A stretch of 57,106 nt of DNA, taken from positions 1 through 57,106 of the IMG/VR virus record IMGVR_UViG_3300048897_000037, one strand, 5' to 3'. This stretch comes from a virus (Duplodnaviria > Caudoviricetes). Of this stretch, positions 1,564 to 25,427 are shown piece after piece. The number at the start of each line of letters is the position of its first letter. Position 1 is the first letter of the stretch. Under the pieces are notes generated by a model that saw only the letters and a list, made by a program, of their open reading frames with translations, was not told the DNA's origin and did not search any database. The translations under genes were made by a program, and so were the position numbers.

Positions 1564-2598
1564 CTACTCGCGAGGGACCGGCGCCCCATTGGCCACCAGG
1601 AAGTTACCCGACCAGGTGTTGATCGTGGCCAGCAACGTGTCCGACGGCCCCCAGTGCCGGTCCGGGCCGAACCCGTTCCCGGTGACCGCCATGATCTGGG
1701 TGCCCGCGTAGGCCCGGAACACGTATCCGCCCCCGTTGAGCAGGTTCTGGGTCACCACCACCCCGCTGACCGGACCCTGGGTGATCTCGAACTGGAACGC
1801 CCCGTTGAGGGGACCACAGGGGATCCACGGCCCGAGGTCGATGACGTTGCCGCTGAACATGGCACCGGCCACACCCAGAACCTGGATACCATCGGAGTGA
1901 TCAGAGCACTGGGGAGCCGGGGCGTGGATCCAGTTGTTGGTCACCATCACCGTGTTCACCGGGCCGGAGTCCGAGGTTATGTGCAGCCCGTCATCCCAGC
2001 CGGTGACGTTGTTGCGGGTGAAGGTGAAGTTGTCGCCCCCGGACAGGCTGACCCCGCCGTGGATGGTGCAGTGGTCGACGGTGACGTTGTTCCCGGTGAA
2101 CACCACCCCGGCCGCCATGGTGCAGTTGCGCAGTGTCAGCCCGCTCACGGTGACCGTACCCAGGGCCGAGGCCGGGATGGACACACCCGTGTATGTGGTG
2201 TTGGCCTGCAGCCGGCCCACCAGCGGCCGTAGTTGGGTCCCAGCCGGTACCCCGGACCCACCAGCTGGTCCGGTGGCAAACGAGCCGATCCCAGGTGGTG
2301 GCGTGGTCGTTGGTGGGACCGTCGTCGGGGGCACAGTGGTCGGGGGCACCGTGGTGGGCGGAACGGTCGTCGGTGGAGCTGTGGTCGGCGGCGGTGTGGT
2401 GGGCCCGGCCGTGGGCAGATCCCCGCTGCAGCTCAGGTGCGAGCCCGTCAGGGTGCAGGTGAGCGCGAAGGTGCCGTCGGTGGTGACCACGGAGGCCGGG
2501 GCTGCACCGGCTGGCAGGGCGACCAGGACCAGACCAGCAGCCATCATGCCGGCGCCGAACGTGACTAGTTCGCGGATGTGCTCTTTGAGCCGTGTCAT
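1564..2598 (-). CDS. secreted right-handed beta-helix (pectin-lyase-fold) protein with Pro/Thr linker
   Basis: signal peptide (...LVLVALPAGA/AP), PPTTV repeats, PbH1-like repeats (NNVTVDHCTIHG, VTNNWIH, HSDGIQ); ATG 2598 lies 6 nt after a -10. Confidence 0.75.
   Translation of the reverse strand: MTRLKEHIRELVTFGAGMMAAGLVLVALPAGAAPASVVTTDGTFALTCTLTGSHLSCSGDLPTAGPTTPPPTTAPPTTVPPTTVPPTTVPPTTVPPTTTPPPGIGSFATGPAGGSGVPAGTQLRPLVGRLQANTTYTGVSIPASALGTVTVSGLTLRNCTMAAGVVFTGNNVTVDHCTIHGGVSLSGGDNFTFTRNNVTGWDDGLHITSDSGPVNTVMVTNNWIHAPAPQCSDHSDGIQVLGVAGAMFSGNVIDLGPWIPCGPLNGAFQFEITQGPVSGVVVTQNLLNGGGYVFRAYAGTQIMAVTGNGFGPDRHWGPSDTLLATINTWSGNFLVANGAPVPRE
2295..2406 (-). repeat. coding tandem repeat (PPTTV/PPTTA linker)
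   Basis: PTTPPPTTAPPTTVPPTTVPPTTVPPTTVPPTTTPPP in translation. Confidence 0.85.
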
Positions 2599-2604
2599 GA
2601 TCCG

Positions 2605-2633
2605 AGCGTGCACAGAGAAGTCTCTGGTGTCAA
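2605..2633 (-). promoter_or_regulatory. sigA/HrdB-type promoter
   Basis: TTGACA-N17-CACGCT on minus strand. Confidence 0.6.
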
Positions 2634-2639
2634 CCTGCC

Positions 2640-2668
2640 TGGCCACCCCTCTCCGGACGTGCTACAAT
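2640..2668 (+). promoter_or_regulatory. sigA-type promoter with extended -10
   Basis: TGGCCA-N17-TACAAT, TGn extension. Confidence 0.6.
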
Positions 2669-2674
2669 GGGGAC

Positions 2675-2796
2675 ATCATGACCGTTGGCACGGAAGTGAT
2701 GGCCATAGATGTGGCGCCTAGGACCTCAACCGGACCGACGATGGCGCCAATCGGCCAGAAGGGCCCCTGGATCCTGTCCCAGGGGCCCTTCTTCTT
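2675..2796 (+). ncRNA. putative small structured RNA 1
   Basis: own promoter; hairpins CATCAT-GA-CCGT/ACGG-AA-GTGATG and TGGCC..TGGCGCC/GGCGCCA..GGCCA; terminator follows. Confidence 0.5.
2757..2796 (+). terminator. intrinsic terminator
   Basis: AGAAGGGCCCCTGG/CCAGGGGCCCTTCT plus T-rich tail. Confidence 0.75.
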
Positions 2797-2824
2797 GCCC
2801 TGTGACCCCTCCCTGGGGTACGCT
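2795..2824 (+). promoter_or_regulatory. sigA-type promoter
   Basis: TTGCCC-N18-TACGCT. Confidence 0.55.
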
Positions 2825-2829
2825 TCCGG

Positions 2830-2960
2830 AACGGCATGGCGTGCCGGGTCTCTGGGTAGGGCTTGGATAGTCCCAGGACAAAAGCTCGGGGAACCTGGGC
2901 CAAGCAGGTGGAACCGAGCCTCCCCCTTGAACCCCCCTGGTCTTGTAGCAGGGGGGTTTC
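2830..2960 (+). ncRNA. putative small RNA 2 with kissing-loop motif (copy A, 2848-2919)
   Basis: two adjacent hairpins with complementary loops GGGCTTGGA / GGCCAAG; same architecture at 25432-25493. Confidence 0.6.
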
Positions 2961-2966
2961 TTGGTT
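2929..2966 (+). terminator. intrinsic terminator
   Basis: GAACCCCCCTG/CAGGGGGGTTT followed by CTTGGTTT. Confidence 0.7.
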
Positions 2967-2973
2967 TCAGGAC

Positions 2974-3002
2974 TTGCCCCCCACCCCTCCCCAGGGTATA
3001 GT
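2974..3002 (+). promoter_or_regulatory. sigA-type promoter
   Basis: TTGCCC-N17-TATAGT. Confidence 0.7.
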
Positions 3003-3018
3003 TATGATCATCTGGCAG

Positions 3019-3092
3019 GCCCCCTGTAGCTCAATGGGTCAGAGCACTCTCACCAAAGAGAGATTCCCGTTCGAACCGGGACGGGGGCACCA
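3019..3092 (+). tRNA. atypical or pseudo tRNA (Trp-like CCA in a 6-nt loop)
   Basis: D arm GCTC/GAGC, T arm TCCCG-TTCGAAC-CGGGA, encoded ACCA end; shortened anticodon loop/variable region, bulged acceptor stem. Confidence 0.65.
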
Positions 3093-3129
3093 GAACAACC
3101 AATCTCTTATCCCTTGAAAGGGGAATGCA

Positions 3130-3762
3130 ATGGACTACGCACTGAAGATCAAGAAGCTGAAAAGACTGAAGTGGGCCTGCCGAGCGATCGTGGCGACCGC
3201 CACCTTCGTTTCGGTCTGGGCGAACCAACTCCAAGCACAACGCAACGGAGCGAGCATCTTCATCTCGATCATGCCCCCACTCATCGTGATGGCAGGTTTC
3301 GAGTTGGTGAGCCGAATCCCGATCAGTAACGGGATCTGGGTCACGAGGTTCACTCGGCCCGTGGTTACCGCCAGCATCACCCTGGGCAGCGCCTGGTTGA
3401 GTTACTTCCACCAGCGCGACGCCTTCGGTCGCTACACGACCGACGTTTCCACCATCCGTGTCCTGCCACTGCTCATCGACGGCCTCATGGTCATCGCGGC
3501 GGTGTCCTTGGTCGAACTGAACGTCCAGGTAGCTTTCCTGGAGACCAAGCAGGCCGGCCTGGATGTGAGGGTTGAGCGGGCCCCACGGCCGGCAACCAAG
3601 GTGGTCGCGAAGGCGCCGTCGGGCAAGGAGCGGATCGCCCTGGTCCTAGCCCAGGCCCCCGATCTGGCTATCAAGGAGATCGCGGCCAAGGCTGGCGTGA
3701 GCTACAACTACGCTCACAGCATCGTCAAGGAGCTTCGGCCTCCACAGGCCATCGGGTCATGA
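3130..3762 (+). CDS. DUF2637/SpdA-like membrane protein with C-terminal HTH
   Basis: 4 TM segments, AWLSYFH and LPLLIDGLMVIA motifs, C-terminal IKEIAAKAGVSYNYA; GAAAGGGG RBS. Confidence 0.75.
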   Translation: MDYALKIKKLKRLKWACRAIVATATFVSVWANQLQAQRNGASIFISIMPPLIVMAGFELVSRIPISNGIWVTRFTRPVVTASITLGSAWLSYFHQRDAFGRYTTDVSTIRVLPLLIDGLMVIAAVSLVELNVQVAFLETKQAGLDVRVERAPRPATKVVAKAPSGKERIALVLAQAPDLAIKEIAAKAGVSYNYAHSIVKELRPPQAIGS

Positions 3763-3770
3763 GCCCACAC

Positions 3771-3805
3771 GAAAGGCCCCCAGGATCGCTCCTGGGGGCC
3801 TTTTC
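3771..3805. terminator. bidirectional terminator
   Basis: GAAAGGCCCCCAGGA/TCCTGGGGGCCTTTT between convergent genes. Confidence 0.85.
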
Positions 3806-3814
3806 TGTGTTCTC

Positions 3815-5645: not shown

Positions 5646-5720
5646 AGCTCGCTCCAGTTCTACCTACCCCAGGGGGGGGTGGGCAAGTGAAGCGTATACC
5701 TATGAATCCAGGTTCGACAA

Positions 5721-17915: not shown

Positions 17916-20900
17916 GTGGGACTGGGCAGCTTTTGGGACCCGAACGACCACCCTCGCGGGTGGCACGGTCGGTTCGCGAAGAAGTGGAAAATCTCCGACA
18001 CGCTTCGGAAGCTGCTCGACGGTTTCACCCCTCGTACGTTCCAGTCGGACAGTCAGGCTGGCCAGTACGCCTTCAACCAGGGCCACAAGAACGGGCCGTT
18101 CTCCTCCGTTGAGCTGACCCGGCTCCGCAAGGACTGGGACGAGGCGCAGGACCACATCAGGGCTGGGGACATGGATCCCCAGACCAAGGCCTTCGACGAC
18201 ATGATGCAGTCCCACATGCATCCGACGTCGGACGGCTTGATCGCCACCACTACGTTCGGCGCGGATGCCTTGGGGCTGCGACCCGACCAGTTGCACGACG
18301 GTCCGGGCGGCATCACCGACCTGTTCGGCACCGTGCTGGGCAACAAGGGATACCAGGCCGTACACCTTGGTACGGATGTCACGCCCGGACAGCATGGTCC
18401 CGGCAAGATCAGCGCCACCATCATGGTGCCGGCCGGAACCCGGGTCGCCTTCCCTGGCCAGTCCCCCCAGGACCGGGGCTTCTTCCTGGACAAGGAACAG
18501 CCCCTGCTCGTCACCCGGATCGACCCGGACGGCATGGGCGGCTGGCGCATCGCTGCGGTCGCCGAACCGCACCCAGGCGTGGGTGCCTCTCAGGTCAGCC
18601 AGGACCTCAACCCCGGTCGCAAGGGGGTAGGCCTCACCCCTGAGGAGCGAGCCGCCCGACTGGCGGAACCATCCACCATGCCAGCACCGGCCACCCCCCA
18701 GGCTGCCCCGGCCACCGAGGCCGTCATGCGCCCCGAGTCGGTGCAGGCGCCCGCCGTGGGCCGCACCCCGGAGCAGGAGGCGGCGCGGGTCCAGCGCGCC
18801 CAGGCTGGGCGGCAGGCCAACGTCAACGAGGGCAACCCCCCGGTCCAGGCCCCACTGCCCACGCCCAACCCTCGGCCAGCCCCAGCCCCACCACCGGCCG
18901 CCGGGCCCCCGTCGCCCACCGGGGTACCGGACCGCAACGAGCCCATCCACGCCCCCTCCATCGGAGGAACAGGCAACGAAGGCAAGTCGGCTTCTGAGAT
19001 TGCCAACCGGCCACCAGAGCCGGCTCCGGAGCCTCCACCGGCGCTGTCCCCGGCAGAGCAGGGCAAGTCGCTCAAAGACGCCTATGTGGAGAGTGGCATC
19101 GAGTCCCCGGCTGCCGGCCCGCACCGGGCTGCCTTCAACCGGGCCTACCTGAACGCCAAGAGTCAGAACGGGCACCCGGAGCAGGCTCTCCGCAACCTGG
19201 AAGCCGACATCAAGTCGGTCGAGGAGAAGGCGGCCGAACAGAAGGTTCACCCCAGTGACCGGGCCGACATGCTCACCGCCGAGGCCGATGCCAAGTCAAT
19301 GAACGACCTGGCCGACCTGATCGCCACACACTTCGGACTACCTCGGGCCAAGAAGGAGGAGAAGGCTCCTAGCTCCCCGGTGCAGCGCACCGGGGCACCT
19401 GATGAGTTCCTGGGCGAGAAGAAGCCGGGCGCCCGCGAAGCCCGCAAGGTGTCCGGGCAGCCATCCCGTAGCGCCACCGGCCTCACCGAGCACGAACAGG
19501 CCGGCGCCGGGCCAGGTACGGCCGGCGTGGGTGGGCGCAAGGAGGGGGCTCCGGAGACTCCCGCGCCGCGCGGCTCCACTGGCACCACCAAGGAGACCCA
19601 GAAGCCCACGGTCAGCGCTGCCCGGGTGAAGGCCGGCGACGTAGTCCTGGCGCGCAAGGATGAGAACGGTAACTGGGTCCACACGTCACGCAAGACGGGC
19701 GCGACTCCGATCACGGTGACCGGCAAGCAGACTGGCAACGGGGCCCACATCATTGAGGGAACCGATCCTGAAGGCAACAAGGTCACCCTTCAGCCGATCC
19801 GTGGCCAGAACGTTTTGCACCGCCACCAGGAGAAGGCGCCCAAGGCGCCGGCCGCCAAGAAGGCGGCCAAGGCTGCGGCGCCCCAGGAGAAGCCGCTCTC
19901 TCACGACGAGATCGCCAAGCGTTCGGCCGAGATGCTGGCCCGTCCACCGGCTACCGGAGGCAAGGAGCAGCCACCGCTAACCGAGGCGGATCACCGGGAG
20001 ATGCTGGCCGGCAACAGCAAGGATCAGCTCCGCAAGATCGGTGAAGACCTGGGCGTCTCGGTGTCCGATAAGGACTCCAAGGCGTCCATGATCGACAAGA
20101 TCGCACCGGCTGCCGCTGCCGACACCGCCAAGCGGCGGGCCGAACGCGTGGCCGGCGAAGGTCCGAGCCCGGCCCTGGGGGAGCGTCAGAGCGCCGACAC
20201 CCCTGCCGTGGACCGTGTTCTGAAGGCCTACAACGACATCGTGGCCCAGGGCGACGGACACGACCGTCGTGTGTCCATTGCGGACATTCGGGCCGAGGTG
20301 GGCGGCGACCTGTCCCGGGCCGAACTGACCCGGGCGCTGCGGGAGATTGGTCGCGGCAACTCCGAGCACGGCGGCTTGCTGTCGCGTGGGGTGAAGCCGG
20401 ACGCCCGCACTGAGGCCAGCGGCATGGACATGGGCGGGGAGAAGGTTCACTTCCTGCAGCTCCCGCGCCCAGGCGAGAAGGAGCGTGGTAAGGAGACCAC
20501 CCCGGTCCCGAAGGAGGAGCCAGCCAAGGCGGTCGCCAAGGCGGCCAAGGCTGTACCGACCAAGGCCCCTGCGAAGGAAACCGGCGACCAGGCCGAGGTC
20601 TCCAAGGTTGCGAGCGCCTTCCATGCGGATTGGCAGAAGACGCAGGCACCCGAGGGGTCTGGCCGCAAGCCCAAGTTCAAGACGACCAAGGACGAAGCCT
20701 GGATCAAGAAGCACGGCACCGATCAGGTCGATATCGCCAACACCTCGTACGCTGATCTGCCCGACGACTGGCAGAAGGAAAACCGAGACGCGGCGGAGGT
20801 AGTGCAGCGCATCCTCAAGGAGCACGGCGGCACTGTTGATCTTTCTGACGAGAAGACGCGCCTTGAGGTTGGCGACCAGATCCACAAGGCTTGGCTGTCC

Positions 20901-23900
20901 CGGGAAAACAACAGCCACGCCAAGGGTGGTGAGCTGGACAAGCCTTTCTCGGAACTCTCCCGCGCAGAGCAGGACAAGGACACCGACCAACTGAAGGTCG
21001 CCATGGAGGTCCTGTCTCCGGCGAAGAAGGGCGGCACCAGTCCCGAAACAGTGTCGGCGGTCAAGCAGGCGTACGAGAACATCGTGGCCCGGCGCGGACC
21101 TGATGGTGACCGCAAGGTGTCCCTGCAGGACATTCGCCAAGAGTTGGATCTGCAGCACGGCTTCAGTCGGCCCGAGGTCGACAAGGCGCTGAAGGAGCTG
21201 GGCCGTGGTGGGTCGGAGCATGGTGGCCTGATCAGCGGTACCACCAACCCCAGCAACCGGGAGGCCGCCGGGGCCATGAAGATGGGCGGCGAGGACGTCC
21301 ACTTCCTGCAGCTACCGCGTCCCGGTGAGGCTGGCCGTGGCGGGGAGGTCACGCCCAACGCTCCCGAGTCTTCTGCTGAAGCGGATGCGGTACGGAACCT
21401 GGCTCCCGCCGACCAGAGCATCTATCACCGTGCCCGGGAAAGCGGGCAGACTCATGAACAGGCCATGGCGACGGTGGCTACCCCTGCGCCGGCAGCCGAG
21501 GCTAAGCCCTTGGAGAAGATGACCAAGGCTGAGCTACTGGCCCACCCTGATGCTGCAGGAGCCAAGCAGTCCTGGACCAAGGACAAGATCAAGCAGCACA
21601 TCCAGGCAGCGCAAGGTGCCAAGACTGCTGCGGCACAACAGGAAGCGGCGAAGGTTGTAGGGAAGGCCGCCCCGCGTCCCACTACACCCATCGACAACGC
21701 CCCCCGGGCCAACGAGTTCACCAAGGCCTGGGACACGGCCGGGATCCCGGAGGCACCGGGCTCGGCCGGGCGCTCCATGAAGGAGATCCGCTCCGACCTG
21801 GCCGAGGGGAAGATCGATCCCGCTGAAGGTGTCCGGCGCATGGAGTCGGAGATCTCCTTCAACAAGGAAGAACTGTCCCAAGTGGAGGCTGACCTCCGCG
21901 CCCCGGACCTAACCGACAAGCAACGGGCTGATCTGCAGGCACAGCACGCCAAGCTCACCGAAGGAGTGAAGGCGCAGGAGAAGGCGTCCGAGTTCCTGCG
22001 CTCCCACTTCGGTGGCGAAGGCGACAAGCCCACCGTGGAGGAAGTGAAGGCGTTCCTTCCGGAAGGTTCGGAGCGCTTCCTGGACAAGGCAACCCCGGAC
22101 GAGATGCGAGATGTTGCCCGGATTCAGGGGCTGGACGAGCCGAAGGGCTCCACGGCCGAGGAGATGTTCAATGACCTGTTGAAGCAGACCGTTGATCGGG
22201 CACTCAAAGAAAAGCGGGAAGAGGGTGCCAGTAAGGCGGCCAAGGCTGAAGCGGCCCGCCTGAAGAAGGAAGCCCGAGAAGCCGGCAAGGCTGGGTTCCG
22301 ACCGGGCGGTGCCAAGCACCTGGACGCGGCGAAGATCGCCGAGGGTTTGGACCTGGGCGAGGACAACAGCTACGTCCAGGACGCCCAGGCTGAGCTGAAC
22401 GACGGCAAGACCCCGAAGCAGGTCGCCGACCGTGTTCGGTTCATGGCCCAGGGGCTGGCCAACAGTAACGCGATCATCCATGGATCTGTTGCTGCCGGCC
22501 ACGAGACGCCCGACGACAAGATGCACCGGGAGACCAAGCTCGCCGAGGGTCGGGCCGCCGTGGCCAAGCTGGAGGAACTGGCCAAGCGGATCGAGGAGTC
22601 CAAGCGCCCCCGCAAGCCTCGGGCGCCGTCCACGAAGCTGACCCCCACGGATCATGTGGCGGCCAGGGAGGCGGCCAAGGCGACCGGTACCCCGGTGGCC
22701 GAGGTGCGCTCCGCTATGGAGGACGCCAAGAAGGCCGACGCCAAGTTGCAGGAGCTGGGCATCCCCACCACGGCCGACGAGCTACACGCCCGGGTGATCG
22801 CGCGCGCCTCAGGGCCGTTCAATGACGCCAAGACCGCCGAGGAAGCACGCCGGGCTGCGACATCCATGCATGGCAACCTGACCCTGGCCGAGATCCGCAA
22901 GATGGGTGCGGAGCACGGCATCACGGGCCGGTCCAAGAAGGACATCACCGACAAGATCATTGAGCGCCGGTTCCCGCCAGAGCCAGGCGCCCCAACTCGG
23001 CTCACTGGTGGCCAGTTCGACCAGTTGAAGGCCGGCGACCCCATCGACATCCACTTGGGCGGCAGCAAGACGCGCAAGGACTCGGTGGCCAAGGTGGACC
23101 CGGATGGCACCCTGCACACGAAGGGTGGCTACAAGTACGGACCCACCAGCGACGTGCAGATCTCCCGGGGCGGAGCGGCCGACACCCGGCCATCCACGCC
23201 GGCTCGCAGCGCCCAGGTGGAGCGGGCCCGGAAGACGGCCGACGTGGTGGCCGAGGTTCACGAACTGGTGGGCAATGGGGCCAGCCCCGACGCCATCCGG
23301 GCCCGGCTGCGCACGGCCGGCCAGGCCAACGGAATCGACACTGCTGAGCTGCAGTCCCTGGCTGATGACCCACAGGCGCTCACCAAGGCGGCTGACAAGC
23401 TGGGCACCTCGGCCGGCCTGTCCCGGGTGGGGGACGTCGGATCCACGACGCCGTTCAACCGGACCAGTCACGAAGGACCCAGTGGCCGGGATCTGGGCAA
23501 CGGGGAGAACGTCCGGGTGACCCGTCCAGGCCACACTGCACGCCTCAGTAACGGCGAGGATGTCACCATCAGCCGGCCCAAGGTGCACCCGGTGTCGGCC
23601 GAGCCAGCGAAGGCAACCCCGGCGAAGCGGGCGGCCAAGAAGGCTCTCCCGGGCCCCCAGGCCAGTCCTCAGGAAGCCTTGGCGGCACTGAACAATGCGA
23701 ACAGCTCCACCACCCGTGAAGAGGCACACGGGATGATCGAACACTTCACGCGTGACGAGCTGATCAGCATGGCCAAGGAGCTGTCAGTTCCCAGCGCCAG
23801 CAGCAAGAGCAAGAAGGCTCTCCGTGATGACATCGTTCATGCGACGGTGGGAGTTCGAGCTGACTCTGAGGCAACCCGTGACCTTCTCCGAGCCCCGCGC

Positions 23901-24821
23901 GCCGGAGACAACGGCTTCCTGCCGACTGACCAGGAGCGACTGGGTGGCCGCCTTGCAGCGGCCAAGAAGGCAGCCAAGGGGGCCGGCCCGGCCGCTGAGC
24001 CACGACTCAGCCCTGCAGCGGAGCAGGCCCGCCTGGAGCAGGAGCGGGCTGACAACATGGCCCGGCTGGCGGCGGCCAAGGCAGTGAAGAAGGCCGCCCC
24101 GACCAAGGCCGCGCCCGCCAAGAAGGAGCGGTTCAGCGAGGCGGCGGCCGAGAAGCAGTTCGGTCCGCAGCCTGGGGAGGCCCGCATTGAGTCTGGCAAG
24201 TTCTCCGACAAGCCGTTGCGTCAGCAGACCTGGGGCGGCCGGGCTCAACCCAATGACGTCCGGTTCCACGAAGATGGAGCTATTGGCAGTGCCCTGAGTT
24301 CGATGGGCCAAGACAAGCGCCTGGATGTTGGTGGCGAGCCGCTCTACAACGTGCTGGGTCAGATCGCCACGGACGTGAACCGTGGAAACATCACCCCGGC
24401 CCAGGGCCTGGAGCGGTACAAGGCCTTGGCGGCTCGACTTCCAGAAGGCAGCAATGCAAGGAAGGAGCTGGAGTACGCCATCCAGAAGATTGACTCCCCT
24501 CCGCGCAAGCCAAACCTGCCAGAGGGGACCCCGGACTACCTTCGGAAGCTGGCTGACCGGTTGGCCGAGATCCCCATTGCCCGCAAGGATGTTGGACGCA
24601 CTGGACGCAAGGGTGAGCTGGACCAGGTGGAGGAGCTGGCCCGACTGTTGACTGACGGAGAGCCCAAGTCTCGATTCACGGCGCAATCCGCACTGGAGAG
24701 GATGATGGGTACCCGGCACGAGAGCGACAGTGACGCCGGGGACCAGCAGATCCTTGCAGCCATCCAGGAAGCACTGAAGGATGAGGAAAGAGCACGGATG
24801 GCCGCCCGTAAGGCGAAGTAG
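17916..24821 (+). CDS. giant multidomain head-associated/ejected protein (degenerate ART, wHTH x2, RyR-like, HeH repeats, GrpE-like)
   Basis: 2301-aa ORF in head module; N-terminal WDPNDHPRGWHGRF motif; domain motifs listed in findings. Confidence 0.75.
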   Translation: MGLGSFWDPNDHPRGWHGRFAKKWKISDTLRKLLDGFTPRTFQSDSQAGQYAFNQGHKNGPFSSVELTRLRKDWDEAQDHIRAGDMDPQTKAFDDMMQSHMHPTSDGLIATTTFGADALGLRPDQLHDGPGGITDLFGTVLGNKGYQAVHLGTDVTPGQHGPGKISATIMVPAGTRVAFPGQSPQDRGFFLDKEQPLLVTRIDPDGMGGWRIAAVAEPHPGVGASQVSQDLNPGRKGVGLTPEERAARLAEPSTMPAPATPQAAPATEAVMRPESVQAPAVGRTPEQEAARVQRAQAGRQANVNEGNPPVQAPLPTPNPRPAPAPPPAAGPPSPTGVPDRNEPIHAPSIGGTGNEGKSASEIANRPPEPAPEPPPALSPAEQGKSLKDAYVESGIESPAAGPHRAAFNRAYLNAKSQNGHPEQALRNLEADIKSVEEKAAEQKVHPSDRADMLTAEADAKSMNDLADLIATHFGLPRAKKEEKAPSSPVQRTGAPDEFLGEKKPGAREARKVSGQPSRSATGLTEHEQAGAGPGTAGVGGRKEGAPETPAPRGSTGTTKETQKPTVSAARVKAGDVVLARKDENGNWVHTSRKTGATPITVTGKQTGNGAHIIEGTDPEGNKVTLQPIRGQNVLHRHQEKAPKAPAAKKAAKAAAPQEKPLSHDEIAKRSAEMLARPPATGGKEQPPLTEADHREMLAGNSKDQLRKIGEDLGVSVSDKDSKASMIDKIAPAAAADTAKRRAERVAGEGPSPALGERQSADTPAVDRVLKAYNDIVAQGDGHDRRVSIADIRAEVGGDLSRAELTRALREIGRGNSEHGGLLSRGVKPDARTEASGMDMGGEKVHFLQLPRPGEKERGKETTPVPKEEPAKAVAKAAKAVPTKAPAKETGDQAEVSKVASAFHADWQKTQAPEGSGRKPKFKTTKDEAWIKKHGTDQVDIANTSYADLPDDWQKENRDAAEVVQRILKEHGGTVDLSDEKTRLEVGDQIHKAWLSRENNSHAKGGELDKPFSELSRAEQDKDTDQLKVAMEVLSPAKKGGTSPETVSAVKQAYENIVARRGPDGDRKVSLQDIRQELDLQHGFSRPEVDKALKELGRGGSEHGGLISGTTNPSNREAAGAMKMGGEDVHFLQLPRPGEAGRGGEVTPNAPESSAEADAVRNLAPADQSIYHRARESGQTHEQAMATVATPAPAAEAKPLEKMTKAELLAHPDAAGAKQSWTKDKIKQHIQAAQGAKTAAAQQEAAKVVGKAAPRPTTPIDNAPRANEFTKAWDTAGIPEAPGSAGRSMKEIRSDLAEGKIDPAEGVRRMESEISFNKEELSQVEADLRAPDLTDKQRADLQAQHAKLTEGVKAQEKASEFLRSHFGGEGDKPTVEEVKAFLPEGSERFLDKATPDEMRDVARIQGLDEPKGSTAEEMFNDLLKQTVDRALKEKREEGASKAAKAEAARLKKEAREAGKAGFRPGGAKHLDAAKIAEGLDLGEDNSYVQDAQAELNDGKTPKQVADRVRFMAQGLANSNAIIHGSVAAGHETPDDKMHRETKLAEGRAAVAKLEELAKRIEESKRPRKPRAPSTKLTPTDHVAAREAAKATGTPVAEVRSAMEDAKKADAKLQELGIPTTADELHARVIARASGPFNDAKTAEEARRAATSMHGNLTLAEIRKMGAEHGITGRSKKDITDKIIERRFPPEPGAPTRLTGGQFDQLKAGDPIDIHLGGSKTRKDSVAKVDPDGTLHTKGGYKYGPTSDVQISRGGAADTRPSTPARSAQVERARKTADVVAEVHELVGNGASPDAIRARLRTAGQANGIDTAELQSLADDPQALTKAADKLGTSAGLSRVGDVGSTTPFNRTSHEGPSGRDLGNGENVRVTRPGHTARLSNGEDVTISRPKVHPVSAEPAKATPAKRAAKKALPGPQASPQEALAALNNANSSTTREEAHGMIEHFTRDELISMAKELSVPSASSKSKKALRDDIVHATVGVRADSEATRDLLRAPRAGDNGFLPTDQERLGGRLAAAKKAAKGAGPAAEPRLSPAAEQARLEQERADNMARLAAAKAVKKAAPTKAAPAKKERFSEAAAEKQFGPQPGEARIESGKFSDKPLRQQTWGGRAQPNDVRFHEDGAIGSALSSMGQDKRLDVGGEPLYNVLGQIATDVNRGNITPAQGLERYKALAARLPEGSNARKELEYAIQKIDSPPRKPNLPEGTPDYLRKLADRLAEIPIARKDVGRTGRKGELDQVEELARLLTDGEPKSRFTAQSALERMMGTRHESDSDAGDQQILAAIQEALKDEERARMAARKAK

Positions 24822-25147: not shown

Positions 25148-25192
25148 TTGCACCTCTCATCACACCTCACCAGCACGGAGAGGTCTTAAGCG

Positions 25193-25266
25193 TGATCCGA
25201 GGAGGGGTCGAACCTCCGACGCGCGGGTTAAGGGCCCGCCGCTCTTGACCGCTGAGCTACCGGATC
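25193..25266 (-). tRNA. tRNA-Lys(CTT), C33 variant, no encoded CCA
   Basis: GATCCGG/TCGGATC acceptor, GCTC/GAGC D stem, GCGGG-CCCTTAA-CCCGC, GGAGG-TTCGACC-CCTCC. Confidence 0.9.
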
Positions 25267-25273
25267 GGGTGGC

Positions 25274-25346
25274 TGGAACTGGTGTCCCAGTCGAGGGGAC
25301 TTCTACACGGTAGCGACCCGTGTTTTCGTGAGGCCTCAACCAGCCC
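25274..25346 (-). ncRNA. tRNA-like cloverleaf RNA
   Basis: GGCTGGT/ACCAGTT then CCA; ACACGG-GTCGCTA-CCGTGT; GTCCC-CTCGACT-GGGAC T-arm-like. Confidence 0.5.
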
Positions 25347-25351
25347 AACCG

Positions 25352-25427
25352 TGGCGCAGGTCGGATTCGAACCGACGATCTCGGGCTTATGGGGCCCACG
25401 GGGACGACCGAACTCCCCTACCGCGCT
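25352..25427 (-). tRNA. tRNA-Met(CAT), initiator-like, C33 variant
   Basis: AGCGCGG/CTGCGCC (A1xC72 mismatch), G11:C24, TGGGC-CCCATAA-GCCCG, GTCGG-TTCGAAT-CCGAC. Confidence 0.88.

What the first reader, a model, noticed from the sequence alone, without database searches (positions are those of the whole stretch)
2640..3092. Island of three tandem promoter-driven small RNAs
About 450 nt without a credible ORF is organised as promoter-RNA-terminator (2640-2796), promoter-RNA-terminator (2795-2966) and promoter-tRNA-like RNA (2974-3092). Each new -35 starts at or just after the previous terminator tail, and all three promoter regions contain ACCCCTC. This looks like a modular sRNA array.
Basis: partly seen in the sequence, partly recalled or inferred. 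Interest (0 to 1): 0.7.

Follow-up and report, generated by a model that had tools for sequence, protein, structure and literature searches.

The report
Phage promoter-terminator array with leader tRNA-like
A 530-base non-coding control region of an uncultured soil phage holds two short promoter-to-terminator units and then a gene promoter, and in that gene's leader a tRNA-shaped insert has replaced a hairpin that all relatives keep.

Summary
The window is a whole IMG/VR phage record, GC 64%, actinophage-like. Positions 2600-3129 are a divergent non-coding region.

P1 (2640-2668) and P2 (2795-2824) are each followed by about 120-135 nt without a conserved ORF. Each stretch ends in a GC-rich hairpin plus U-rich tail (T1 2758-2796, T2 2930-2969) that runs into the next -35.

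P2 and P3 are copies of one promoter module carrying the palindrome ACCCC-N5-GGGGT. The same module precedes the ParB/replication operon.

A close metagenomic relative keeps the promoters and T1, with one compensatory pair in T1. It has one extra module and lacks the ATG-2678 frame.

The third unit is not a stand-alone sRNA. P3 is the conserved promoter of the DUF2637/HTH gene at 3130-3762.

In 10 of 10 relatives the leader of that gene carries a covarying hairpin. Here its inner 28 nt are replaced by a 70-nt tRNA-like element (Rfam tRNA, 40.7 bits). This element has a 6-nt anticodon loop, and its apparent 3' CCA belongs to the conserved flank.

No transcript data exist, so function is inferred. 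This is a new variant of known kinds, of moderate interest.

The parts
2597..2634 (-). Context: divergent promoter and probable leaderless start of the secreted beta-helix gene. TTGACA 2634-2629, 17-nt spacer, CACGCT 2611-2606, ATG 2599-2597.
   Evidence: Read directly. 45 of 47 positions (2593-2639) are identical in L005. Pfam Beta_helix on ORF 1564-2646. The start at 2599 is my inference from the signal-peptide-like MTRLKEH... sequence.
2640..2668 (+). P1: TGGCCA-17-TACAAT with an extended -10 (TGc). Predicted start near A2675.
   Evidence: Promoter scan. In L005 the -10 reads TACCAT and the TG is kept. 22 of 29 positions are identical.
2675..2796 (+). RNA1, a predicted non-coding transcript of about 120 nt. 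It has a variable 5' part, a conserved core at 2713-2746 and terminator T1.
   Evidence: Fold energy -65.3 kcal/mol, z -4.87, 0 of 200 shuffles as good. Core: 31 of 34 positions identical to L005. 5' part: 11 of 44 identical, with 21 gap columns.
2758..2796 (+). T1: 13-bp GC-rich hairpin (2758-2770 with 2779-2791) followed by TTCTTG.
   Evidence: Fold. The pair 2768-2781 is U-A here and C-G in L005, X2 and X4. The ortholog is flagged as terminator-like in L005.
2795..2832 (+). P2 module: -35 TTGCCC 2795-2800; palindrome ACCCC-TCCCT-GGGGT 2805-2819; -10 TACGCT 2819-2824; conserved TTCCGGAAC 2824-2832.
   Evidence: 32 of 36 positions identical to L005. Two 40-nt copies, 90% alike, lie 100 nt apart in L005. 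Not flagged by the scan.
2830..2969 (+). RNA2, a predicted non-coding transcript of about 135 nt. It contains a conserved C-rich stretch GAGCCTCCCCC (2916-2926) and ends at T2 (stem 2930-2939 with 2949-2958, tail 2959-2969).
   Evidence: Fold; the z-score is only -1.07. 62 of 92 window positions are identical to L005, which also has a 133-nt insertion. In run X2 the body 2833-2951 is replaced by 87 other letters.
2974..3002 (+). P3: TTGCCC-17-TATAGT with ACCCC-TCCCC-AGGGT (2983-2997). This is the promoter of the DUF2637/HTH gene.
   Evidence: Scan. 50 of 53 positions identical to L005. An equivalent promoter lies 100-165 nt upstream of the homologous gene in all 19 metagenome loci.
3011..3094 (+). 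Leader stem-loop. The closing stem UCUGG (3011-3015) with CCAGA (3090-3094) is conserved in relatives. Here it encloses the tRNA-like insert.
   Evidence: Fold. The flanks are identical in L005, X3 and X4, where the enclosed part is a 28-nt hairpin.
3020..3089 (+). tRNA-like insert of 70 nt. D arm 3029-3045; anticodon stem 3047-3051 with 3058-3062; 6-nt loop ACCAAA 3052-3057; 2-nt variable region; T arm 3065-3081; acceptor of 6 pairs.
   Evidence: ARAGORN. Rfam tRNA 40.7 bits, with 8 nt where the model has 11. Cloverleaf minimum-energy fold. Absent from L004/L005, X3 and X4.
3111..3132 (+). Small hairpin CCCTT-GAA-AGGGG that overlaps the Shine-Dalgarno sequence, followed by ATG 3130.
   Evidence: Folds of the window and of 10 relatives. 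The sequence CCCTGAAAGGGGA is conserved across the loci.
3130..3762 (+). DUF2637-family membrane protein with a C-terminal HTH, expressed as a single-gene unit.
   Evidence: 8 of 10 family members match PF10935 (best E 3.8e-12); the window's own copy does not match. Alignment A3. An RNA-library contig covers 3316-3543.
3772..3811 (.). T3: 14-bp hairpin AAAGGCCCCCAGGA/TCCTGGGGGCCTTT with a T-rich tail, closing the unit.
   Evidence: Read. Not scanned with the terminator tool.
5665..5686 (-). Promoter of the ParB/replication operon carrying the same module: TTGCCC followed by ACCCC-CCCCT-GGGGTA.
   Evidence: The same module sits at the equivalent place in L004/L005.

Best explanation
Positions 2600-3129 are the early or immunity-type control region of an uncultured soil actinophage. 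They hold three same-direction transcription units.

Units 1 and 2 (P1-RNA1-T1 and P2-RNA2-T2) make short non-coding transcripts of about 120 and 135 nt. Each stops at an intrinsic terminator whose U-tail abuts the next -35.

Unit 3 is the monocistronic mRNA of a DUF2637/HTH membrane protein: P3, leader, gene 3130-3762 and terminator T3.

P2, P3 and the ParB-operon promoter share a palindrome, ACCCC-N5-GGGGT, that overlaps the spacer and the -10. It most likely binds one dimeric phage regulator, so these promoters would be switched together.

In the whole phage family the leader of unit 3 begins with a three-tier RNA hairpin. In this phage the inner part of that hairpin has been exchanged for a tRNA-shaped element with an intact elbow and acceptor but a defective anticodon arm. 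I infer that the element does not decode. I infer that it acts as a structured 5' leader module that RNase P and 3'-end nucleases can cut out, releasing a roughly 74-nt RNA and re-setting the 5' end of the mRNA 37 nt before the ATG.

Shown by the analyses: the sequence architecture, its conservation, covariation of the family hairpin, the allele replacement, and the absence of a conserved ORF.

Inferred: transcription, termination, processing, regulator binding, and any trans-acting role of RNA1 and RNA2.
For: Record and neighbours.
- the window is a whole virus record.
- neighbouring genes and actinophage-like relatives.

Architecture.
- P1 and P3 found, 2 against 0.1 expected.
- RNA1 folds with z -4.87, and the tRNA-like adopts a cloverleaf.

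Close relatives.
- 19 related metagenome loci. Two are close (96% aa), but they are identical to each other over this region and so count as one comparator.
- identity to L005 forms a mosaic. Minus promoter 96%, P1 76%, RNA1 core 91%, T1 84%, P2 89%, P3 94%, rest of leader 98%. Against these, RNA1 5' part 25% and tRNA-like 17%. L005 has an extra P2 module followed by its own hairpin.
- compensatory U-A to C-G change in T1.
- T1 and T2 orthologs are flagged as terminators.

Shared promoter module.
- with at most one mismatch, the palindrome marks P2, P3 and the ParB promoter (five of the seven hits, counting both strands of the palindrome). The two other one-mismatch hits (15358, 46445) were not followed up.
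- a related promoter precedes the homologous gene in 19 of 19 loci.

Leader hairpin and its replacement.
- the leader hairpin is present in 10 of 10 relatives folded, and the closing stem in 9 of 10.
- 94.3% of cells are paired. 5 of 13 pairs change on both sides (4 of 500 shuffles reach this). Covariation score 0.263 against 0.135 (0 of 500). Slid controls pair at most 48.5%. G-U pairs are present.
- runs X3 and X4 carry the 28-nt hairpin allele exactly between 3019 and 3090. X2 carries a third allele of 82 letters.
- the tRNA-like calls.
Against: - No transcript evidence. The one RNA library that holds any of this DNA gives a single 228-nt contig inside the gene, and DNA carry-over in that library is not excluded.
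- P2, T1 and T2 are not flagged in the window by the simple scan.
- The RNA2 fold is not better than shuffles (z -1.07; 27 of 200 shuffles as good).
- The close comparison rests on about three lineages: the window, L004/L005 (the same allele as X3 and X4), and X2. Their flanking coding DNA is 89% identical, so some of the apparent conservation may only reflect recent divergence.
- No convincing antisense target of RNA1, RNA2 or the leader was found in the phage. The best match is 13 nt at E 0.09.
- The tRNA-like allele is seen only in this record and in its probable source run X1.
- The regulator and the nucleases are not identified.
Confidence: 0.55

Rival explanations
1. Attenuation or antitermination cascade. 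P1, P2 and P3 are tandem promoters that all serve the DUF2637/HTH gene. T1 and T2 are regulated or leaky stops, as at lambda pR'-tR' with its 6S RNA, or as with HK022 put RNA. On this reading the short RNAs are by-products, or elements that act in cis on RNA polymerase, not trans-acting sRNAs.
For: All three promoters face one single-gene unit that ends at T3. The terminator tails are short and interrupted (TTCTTG, TCTTGGTTT) and fail the strict scan, so read-through is plausible. The most conserved part of RNA1 is a structured core just upstream of T1. No trans target was found. The comparison with lambda and HK022 is recalled, not tested.
Against: The gene has its own well-conserved promoter in 19 of 19 relatives, and 17 of those lack the upstream modules. 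The module bodies are replaced or duplicated between close relatives, which is odd for a tuned attenuator. No Q-like or N-like factor was looked for or found.
Confidence: 0.2
2. DNA-level array. The repeated modules are mainly operator and promoter sites that bind or titrate a phage regulator, or RNA polymerase. On this reading the hairpins and the transcribed bodies have no function as RNA.
For: What is conserved is the promoter/palindrome modules, not the bodies. The palindrome ACCCC-N5-GGGGT also marks the ParB-operon promoter. In distant relatives the GGGAGGGGT motif occurs in the opposite orientation near another promoter-like site (my reading). Distant relatives carry an 8-bp-arm inverted repeat at the same promoter position.
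Against: T1 keeps its stem through a compensatory change and is followed by a U-tract on the + strand only. The RNA1 core (31 of 34 positions) is conserved although it lies outside any promoter module. Every module, including the extra one in L005, ends in a strong hairpin directly before the next -35.
Confidence: 0.12
3. The tRNA-like element is a working tRNA or a tRNA decoy. It could be an unusual decoder with a 6-nt or 8-nt anticodon loop that shifts the reading frame, or a bait for host tRNA-cleaving defence nucleases.
For: The T arm, the D-loop GG and six G-C acceptor pairs are intact, and A73 plus CCA follow. The phage carries two ordinary tRNAs elsewhere. A role of phage tRNAs in evading anticodon nucleases has been proposed (PMC10264068; I saw only the search listing with the start of the abstract, and my term search inside the paper found none of my terms).
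Against: The anticodon arm plus variable region is 3 nt short and there is no U33. The 5' acceptor strand carries one extra base or a C-C mismatch. The CCA is the conserved flank of the family hairpin and is predicted to pair with the leader. The score of 40.7 bits is below the phage's own tRNAs at 55.8 and 47.4. Close relatives do without it. No relative of its anticodon arm turned up: 0 matches in genome contigs and 1 chance match in viral contigs.
Confidence: 0.08
4. A small protein is made from the near-leaderless ATG at 2678, or from another short frame in the region.
For: The ATG lies 10 nt after the P1 -10. GC at third codon positions in that frame is about 0.8 over 2680-2770.
Against: The same third-position phase belongs to the minus-strand gene just upstream. 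Over the whole frame GC3 is 0.67. The frame would have to run through two terminators. L005 lacks the ATG region (20-nt gap) and shifts frame at 1-nt gaps. X2 has GTG in place of the ATG plus many frame-breaking deletions. The 71-aa membrane protein gene that sits here in distant relatives has no trace in 2600-3130.
Confidence: 0.03

Closest known systems
Abundant small non-coding RNAs made from the early lytic promoter Pleft of mycobacteriophages L5, D29 and StarStuff (PMC5712189; I read passages through a term search)
   Same: A non-coding stretch of about 500 bp lies between an early promoter and the first early genes of an actinophage. It has no conserved ORF and is rich in insertions and deletions between close relatives.
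   Different: There is no DNA similarity: blastn of 2560-3140 against 50,697 phage records gave no match. According to the paper, that RNA comes from one promoter and no canonical stem-loop terminator defines its 3' end. Here there are two or three promoter-terminator modules. Expression is shown for those phages and not here.
C4 RNA of phages P1/P7 and CI RNA of satellite phage P4: sRNAs cut out of an mRNA leader by RNase P
   Same: A small structured RNA with a tRNA-type acceptor end sits in the leader of the transcript that it precedes, and would be released by tRNA-processing enzymes.
   Different: Those RNAs are antisense immunity regulators with known targets and are not tRNA homologues. 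The Rfam search of 2400-3400 at E up to 10 gave only tRNA at this place and no C4 family match. No target complementarity was found here.
tRNA genes (Rfam RF00005) and phage-encoded tRNAs
   Same: Cloverleaf with standard D and T arms, scoring above the family's gathering score.
   Different: 6-nt anticodon loop, 2-nt variable region, irregular acceptor, location inside an mRNA leader, and absence from close relatives.
tRNA-like processing signals such as mascRNA at the MALAT1 3' end (PMC8457004; search listing and start of abstract only) and tRNA punctuation of organelle transcripts (recalled)
   Same: A tRNA-shaped element inside a longer transcript is flanked by a leader-trailer pairing, and could mark where the transcript is cut.
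   Different: Those are eukaryotic or organellar systems. Here the element is in a phage mRNA leader, and no cutting has been shown.
Repeated early promoters with repressor sites in actinophages, such as the phiC31 conserved inverted repeats and the cluster A stoperators (recalled)
   Same: One short conserved element recurs at several early promoters of a phage (P2, P3 and the ParB operon).
   Different: The sequence is different. No repressor has been identified and binding is untested.

Membership tests
tRNA (RF00005) | Score at or above Rfam's gathering score of 29 bits | tested here: met
   40.7 bits, E 5.7e-07, in sensitive mode. Not reported with the default filters over the whole window. 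The phage's other tRNAs score 55.8 and 47.4 bits.
tRNA (RF00005) | 5-bp anticodon stem with a 7-nt loop (U33, purine 37) and a variable region of 4-5 nt | tested here: not met
   The stem is 5 bp, but the loop is the 6-nt ACCAAA with no U33, and the variable region is 2 nt. The model's 11 positions are filled by 8 nt.
tRNA (RF00005) | 7-bp acceptor stem with two bases before the D stem | tested here: inconclusive
   There are six pairs in either register: a C-C mismatch at 1-72 in the Rfam register, or a U-C mismatch at 7-66 plus three connector bases in the ARAGORN register.
tRNA (RF00005) | T arm with a GTTCGAA-type loop and GG in the D loop (elbow) | tested here: met
   TCCCG-TTCGAAC-CGGGA and D loop AATGGGTCA.
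tRNA (RF00005) | Aminoacylation and decoding | not testable with these tools
No amino-acid identity could be assigned.
Intrinsic (Rho-independent) terminator | GC-rich hairpin directly followed by a U-rich tract on the transcribed strand | tested here: inconclusive
   T1 and T2 have stems of 13 and 10 bp with tails TTCTTG and TCTTGGTTT. They fail the strict scan in the window. Their orthologs in L005 pass it.
Sigma-70/sigma-A type promoter | -35 and -10 hexamers 16-18 nt apart | tested here: met
   P1 and P3 pass the scan with 9 of 12 matches each. P2 has TTGCCC-18-TACGCT (only 3 of 6 in the -10), does not pass, and is supported by paralogy and conservation.
Trans-acting base-pairing sRNA | A discrete stable transcript with a conserved seed complementary to a target | tested here: inconclusive
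   No transcript data. Conserved single-stranded candidates exist: the RNA1 core at 2713-2746 and the C-rich 2919-2926. No significant complement was found within the phage. The host is unknown.
C4/CI leader-embedded antisense RNA (Rfam C4 family) | Match to the family model | tested here: not met
   No such match in the E<=10 search of 2400-3400 or in the whole-window gathering search.
Phage attP core within a tRNA gene | An integrase gene nearby and identity to a host tRNA 3' part | tested here: not met
   No PF00589 or PF00239 match in the record, which is 88% complete. No genome in the species collection holds the anticodon-arm 20-mer.

The most novel reading that the evidence does not exclude
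The leader of the DUF2637/HTH gene is a swap site where soil actinophages exchange structured RNA cassettes inside a fixed closing stem. Three alleles are seen: the family hairpin, a tRNA-shaped element, and an uncharacterised 82-nt allele.

On this reading the tRNA-shaped cassette has been co-opted as an RNase-P-dependent switch or as a released regulatory or decoy RNA. The upstream promoter-terminator modules would form a fast-evolving array of expressed sRNA cassettes, which varies in copy number (two modules here, three in the relative) and serves host takeover or counter-defence.
Probability: 0.15. Interest if true: 0.75.

Novelty: new variant of a known kind. Interest (0 to 1): 0.45.

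Why it matters
Phage-encoded regulatory RNAs in actinophages are poorly understood. The best-known case, the Pleft RNAs of L5 and D29, still has no mechanism.

This locus offers a compact architecture that is well defined by comparison: identical promoter/operator modules, each closed by a terminator, with bodies that are replaced or duplicated between near-identical phages.

It also shows a natural experiment. A covarying leader hairpin kept across a whole phage family has been replaced by a tRNA-shaped element. That gives a direct way to ask what a tRNA fold does inside a bacterial mRNA leader, whether in processing, stability or regulator escape.

If the RNAs are not made, the result is still useful: it is a map of a co-regulated early promoter set and of a new conserved leader structure that is not in Rfam.

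Tried and rejected
- Phage record searches. blastn of 2560-3140 and tblastn of the 210-aa protein against 50,697 phage records gave no match. The primase finds only relatives at about 32% identity.
- IMG/VR. The 210-aa protein found no relative. The primase found one locus, L003, at 35% identity, which is not syntenic and has no tRNA.
- Pattern searches. The 37-nt tRNA-like pattern gave 0 hits. The 20-nt anticodon-arm pattern gave 1 chance hit inside a coding region of a low-GC phage. A leader/RBS consensus pattern gave 1 chance hit in coding DNA.
- Species genome collection. The family alignment found no relative and the 20-mer gave 0 hits, so there is no prophage copy and no host clue.
- Paralogy. 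The tRNA-like is not a paralogue of the phage's Lys or Met tRNAs, nor of the Arg and Tyr tRNAs in related loci.
- Antisense targets. None found within the phage.
- Sequencing runs. The only RNA library gave one contig inside the gene and nothing over 2640-3129. Contigs cannot show absence, so this counts neither way.
- Earlier findings of this scan: none.
- Literature. A search for 6-nt anticodon loops found one unrelated paper. Searches for tRNA-like elements in phage leaders, and for promoter-terminator ncRNA arrays in actinophages, found nothing specific. So "not in print" rests only on these searches of open-access text. Supplementary files were not opened.
- NCBIfam scan: failed on a coordinate slip of mine and was not repeated.
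- attP reading: rejected, because no integrase is present.
Full report
WHAT THE WINDOW IS

The 57,106-base window is a complete IMG/VR virus record, classed as linear and 88% complete by CheckV. Its GC content is about 64%. Its prim-pol/D5-type primase is about 32% identical to primases of Arthrobacter phages, and most hits come from actinophages.

The genes around the finding are as follows.
- On the minus strand, a secreted right-handed beta-helix protein (ORF 1564-2646; Pfam Beta_helix).
- On the plus strand, a 210-aa protein at 3130-3762.
- Then, on the minus strand, two ParB-like genes and the primase.

The 210-aa protein belongs to DUF2637: 8 of 10 family members match PF10935, although the window's own copy does not. 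It has membrane helices and a C-terminal HTH.

CHECKING THE OBSERVATION

Promoters. The consensus scan of 2400-3400 finds two promoter-like sites against 0.1 expected.
- P1: TGGCCA-17-TACAAT at 2640-2668, with TG before the -10.
- P3: TTGCCC-17-TATAGT at 2974-3002.
- P2: TTGCCC-18-TACGCT at 2795-2824. The scan does not flag it, because only 3 of 6 bases in the -10 match. It shares a 16-nt repeat with P3, ACCCCTCCCTGGGGTA against ACCCCTCCCCAGGGTA.

Terminators. The two hairpins are clear in the folds.
- T1 is a 13-bp stem (2758-2770 with 2779-2791) followed by TTCTTG.
- T2 is a 10-bp stem (2930-2939 with 2949-2958) followed by TCTTGGTTT.
- Neither passes the strict terminator scan in the window.
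- The -35 of P2 begins 3 nt after T1, and the -35 of P3 begins 15 nt after T2.

The ACCCCTC motif. It occurs at 2645, 2805 and 2983. The 7-mer is not over-represented in the window as a whole (12 found, 16.7 expected). Three copies on one strand within 345 nt is unlikely by chance: Poisson about 8e-6 per window, about 0.003 over all windows.

The tRNA-like element. ARAGORN reports 3019-3092 as 'tRNA-???' with a two-base anticodon. Rfam's tRNA model scores 40.7 bits, against a gathering score of 29, in the sensitive search. The element is lost with the default filters.

CODING POTENTIAL

The frame from ATG 2678 to 3001 has GC1/2/3 of 0.59/0.64/0.67. Real genes here have GC3 of 0.82-0.87. A local rise of third-position GC at 2680-2770 is in the same phase as the minus-strand gene and is weak. 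Comparison with relatives, described below, removes the ORF.

CLOSE RELATIVES

IMG/VR and the GenBank phage collection gave no useful relative. A metagenome scan with the 210-aa protein gave 19 loci.
- L004 and L005 are 96% identical in protein. They are identical to each other over this region, so they count as one comparator.
- The other 17 loci are 33-44% identical.

The alignment of 2590-3140 with L005 shows a mosaic.

Conserved segments:
- minus-strand promoter region, 45 of 47 positions identical
- P1, 22 of 29
- a core of RNA1 (2713-2746), 31 of 34
- T1, 32 of 38
- P2 module, 32 of 36
- P3 module, 50 of 53
- leader after the insert, 39 of 40

Variable segments:
- the 5' part of RNA1, 11 of 44 with 21 gap columns
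- the RNA2 body, where 62 of 92 window positions are identical and L005 carries 133 extra bases
- T2

Other points from this comparison:
- The 20-nt gap removes ATG 2678, and further 1-nt gaps shift the frame.
- The T1 pair 2768-2781 is U-A here and C-G in L005.
- The extra 133 bases in L005 are one more module. It is a second copy of the 40-nt P2 block, 90% identical and 100 nt away. The roughly 60-nt transcript that runs from the first copy to it ends in its own 14-bp hairpin, directly before the second copy's -35.
- In L005 the scan tool flags T1 and T2 as terminator-like: 3 found against 0.6 expected.

Contigs of three DNA runs laid on 2500-3800 agree with this picture and add a third lineage.
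- X4 and X3 carry the L005-type allele.
- X2 has GTG in place of ATG 2678 and many 1-7-nt deletions across 2673-2712.
- X2 has the same compensatory T1 pair.
- In X2, 87 other letters replace 2833-2951.
- In X2, 82 other letters replace 3016-3087. The tool did not print them.

THE PROMOTER MODULE

The element shared by P2 and P3 is a palindrome, ACCCC-N5-GGGGT, which ends in the first T of the -10.
- With at most one mismatch it occurs in the window at P2, at P3 and in front of the ParB/replication operon (5665-5686, minus strand). There are two other one-mismatch hits, which I did not follow up. That makes 7 matches, counting both strands of the palindrome, against 1.9 expected.
- The same module sits at the equivalent ParB promoter in L004/L005.
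- In all 19 loci a -35-like TTGACA or TTGCnn, a C-rich ACCC(C)...CCTGGGT stretch and a TAnnnT-type -10 lie 100-165 nt upstream of the homologous gene.
- In most of the distant relatives this stretch forms an inverted repeat with 8-bp arms.
- In many relatives a hairpin with a T-rich tail abuts that -35.

I read the palindrome as an operator for one dimeric regulator. That is inference.

THE THIRD UNIT

P3 is the gene's own promoter. The gene is a single-gene unit closed by a 14-bp hairpin at 3772-3803.

The leaders of 10 relatives fold into the same three-tier hairpin near the 5' end. The mid and apical stems are present in 10 of 10, and the closing stem CUGG/CCAG, or CCGG/CCGG, in 9 of 10. 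A small hairpin over the Shine-Dalgarno sequence follows.

The structure was counted on alignment A6, which has 9 sequences. The L007 row is truncated at its 5' side by my coordinate slip, and its gap cells are set aside. Results:
- 94.3% of cells pair.
- 5 of 13 pairs change on both sides; 4 of 500 shuffles reach this.
- The covariation score is 0.263 against 0.135; 0 of 500 shuffles reach it.
- Slid controls pair at most 48.5%.
- G-U pairs occur.

It is therefore an RNA structure. It has no Rfam family: the gathering search of the 19 loci gave only one tRNA.

In the window the closing stem is kept (3011-3015 with 3090-3094). The inner 28 nt, which are GAGCGCCGAGGCGCGAGCCCGCGCTACG in L005, X3 and X4, are replaced by the 70-nt tRNA-like at 3020-3089.

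It follows that the apparent encoded CCA (3090-3092) is the conserved 3' strand of the family stem. Likewise G3019 belongs to the conserved 5' flank.

ANATOMY OF THE tRNA-LIKE ELEMENT

- The D arm, T arm (TTCGAAC loop) and D-loop GG are standard.
- The acceptor has six G-C or G-U pairs in either register, with one mismatch or one extra base.
- The anticodon stem is a perfect 5 bp, but the loop is the 6-nt ACCAAA with no U33.
- The variable region is 2 nt, so this part is 3 nt shorter than the model.
- It scores below the phage's own tRNA-Lys (55.8 bits) and tRNA-Met (47.4 bits).
- It is not a paralogue of those tRNAs, nor of the tRNAs in related loci.
- No integrase is present in the record.
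- Its anticodon-arm 20-mer is absent from the species genome collection.

I conclude that it is a tRNA-shaped leader element and not a decoder or an attP remnant. Its intact acceptor/T-arm half and its A73-CCA context make it a plausible substrate for RNase P and 3'-end trimming. That is inference from general knowledge of those enzymes.

WHAT STANDS IN THIS PLACE IN DISTANT RELATIVES

Of the 13 sources examined (the window and 12 loci), eight loci carry a conserved gene for a 71-78-aa single-pass membrane protein upstream of the promoter. One of these, L015, also has a normal tRNA-Arg just before that gene. The window and L005 have no trace of this gene in the region. The promoter-terminator modules are therefore a feature of the window's own lineage.

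FUNCTION

Nothing shows transcription. The only RNA library holding related sequence gives one 228-nt contig inside the gene. No antisense target stands out within the phage.

My best reading, at 0.55, has three parts: two short terminated non-coding transcripts; a gene whose leader carries a processable tRNA-like module; and co-regulation through the shared operator.

The main rival, at 0.2, is that T1 and T2 are regulated stops in a tandem-promoter cascade feeding the gene. A purely DNA-level operator array (0.12), a working or decoy tRNA (0.08) and a small protein (0.03) are less likely, for the reasons given under each rival.

COMPARISON WITH WHAT IS KNOWN

- The closest described case is the roughly 500-bp non-coding early region of mycobacteriophages L5, D29 and StarStuff. 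It gives very abundant small RNAs from Pleft and is rich in indels (PMC5712189, passages read). There is no sequence similarity to it, and that region lacks the promoter-terminator punctuation seen here.
- Leader-embedded, RNase-P-processed phage RNAs (P1 C4 and P4 CI, recalled) and tRNA-like processing signals (mascRNA; PMC8457004, abstract start only) are functional analogies, not family membership.
- I found no printed description of a tRNA-like element replacing a conserved leader hairpin in a phage. I also found none of 6-nt-loop tRNA-likes in actinophages. These statements rest on the open-access text searches. Supplementary files were not seen.

VERDICT

This is a new variant of known kinds, of moderate interest (0.45). 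It is limited by the lack of expression data, the unknown host and the small number of independent comparators.

Noticed in passing
L005:1600-1645 and the equivalent leaders of L006-L022 (for example L011:1972-2019): A conserved three-tier RNA hairpin lies in the 5' leader of DUF2637/HTH genes of a soil phage group. It shows covariation (5 of 13 pairs change on both sides), its apical loops vary (GCGA, AUCU, ACUU, AUGU, GUA), and it has no Rfam family.
   Followed up: yes
window 3111-3123 and all related loci: A conserved small hairpin, CCCU(U)GAAAGGGG, pairs the G-run of the Shine-Dalgarno sequence of the DUF2637 gene with an upstream C-run. It may control translation.
   Followed up: partly
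window 2597-2646: The beta-helix gene probably starts at ATG 2599 (MTRLKEH..., signal-peptide-like) and not at GTG 2646. TTGACA-17-CACGCT ends 6 nt before that ATG, which suggests a leaderless mRNA. The spacer holds the inverted repeat CAGAGA/TCTCTG.
   Followed up: partly
L011:1716-1931, L013:2449-2664, L015:1457-1672, L018:3396-3611 and others: A conserved gene for a 71-78-aa single-pass membrane protein (MT.EG.AL.LGAVATL...GGLIVPRDKST) lies upstream of the DUF2637 gene in distant relatives. It is absent from the window and from L005, where the non-coding modules sit instead.
   Followed up: partly
L011:~1160-1200, L013, L016-L018, L020-L022 (minus strand): A C-rich block of about 40 nt, CATCCCCCCACCCTACCAACCCCCACCCCTCCCTAGCAAGG, is nearly identical in eight distant loci, 560-850 nt upstream of the DUF2637 gene. 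Read on the plus strand, it looks like a promoter with the GGGAGGGGT motif reversed in its spacer.
   Followed up: no
window 25192-25427 (-): Two ordinary phage tRNA genes, Lys(CTT) and Met(CAT), neither with an encoded CCA. Rfam scores are 55.8 and 47.4 bits.
   Followed up: partly
window 17916-24821 (+): A single open frame of 2301 codons lies in the structural region. I did not analyse it.
   Followed up: no
window 3772-3811: A strong symmetric hairpin, AAAGGCCCCCAGGA/TCCTGGGGGCCTTT, lies between the convergent DUF2637 gene and the minus-strand operon. It is probably a two-way terminator, and its stem sequence resembles that of T1.
   Followed up: no
window 2836-2859: A 7-codon frame (ATG...TAG) inside the first hairpin of RNA2 keeps its length in L005 (MACRVSG here, MVCRVLV there). 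It has no Shine-Dalgarno sequence and lies within a conserved stem, so it is probably structural and not translated.
   Followed up: partly
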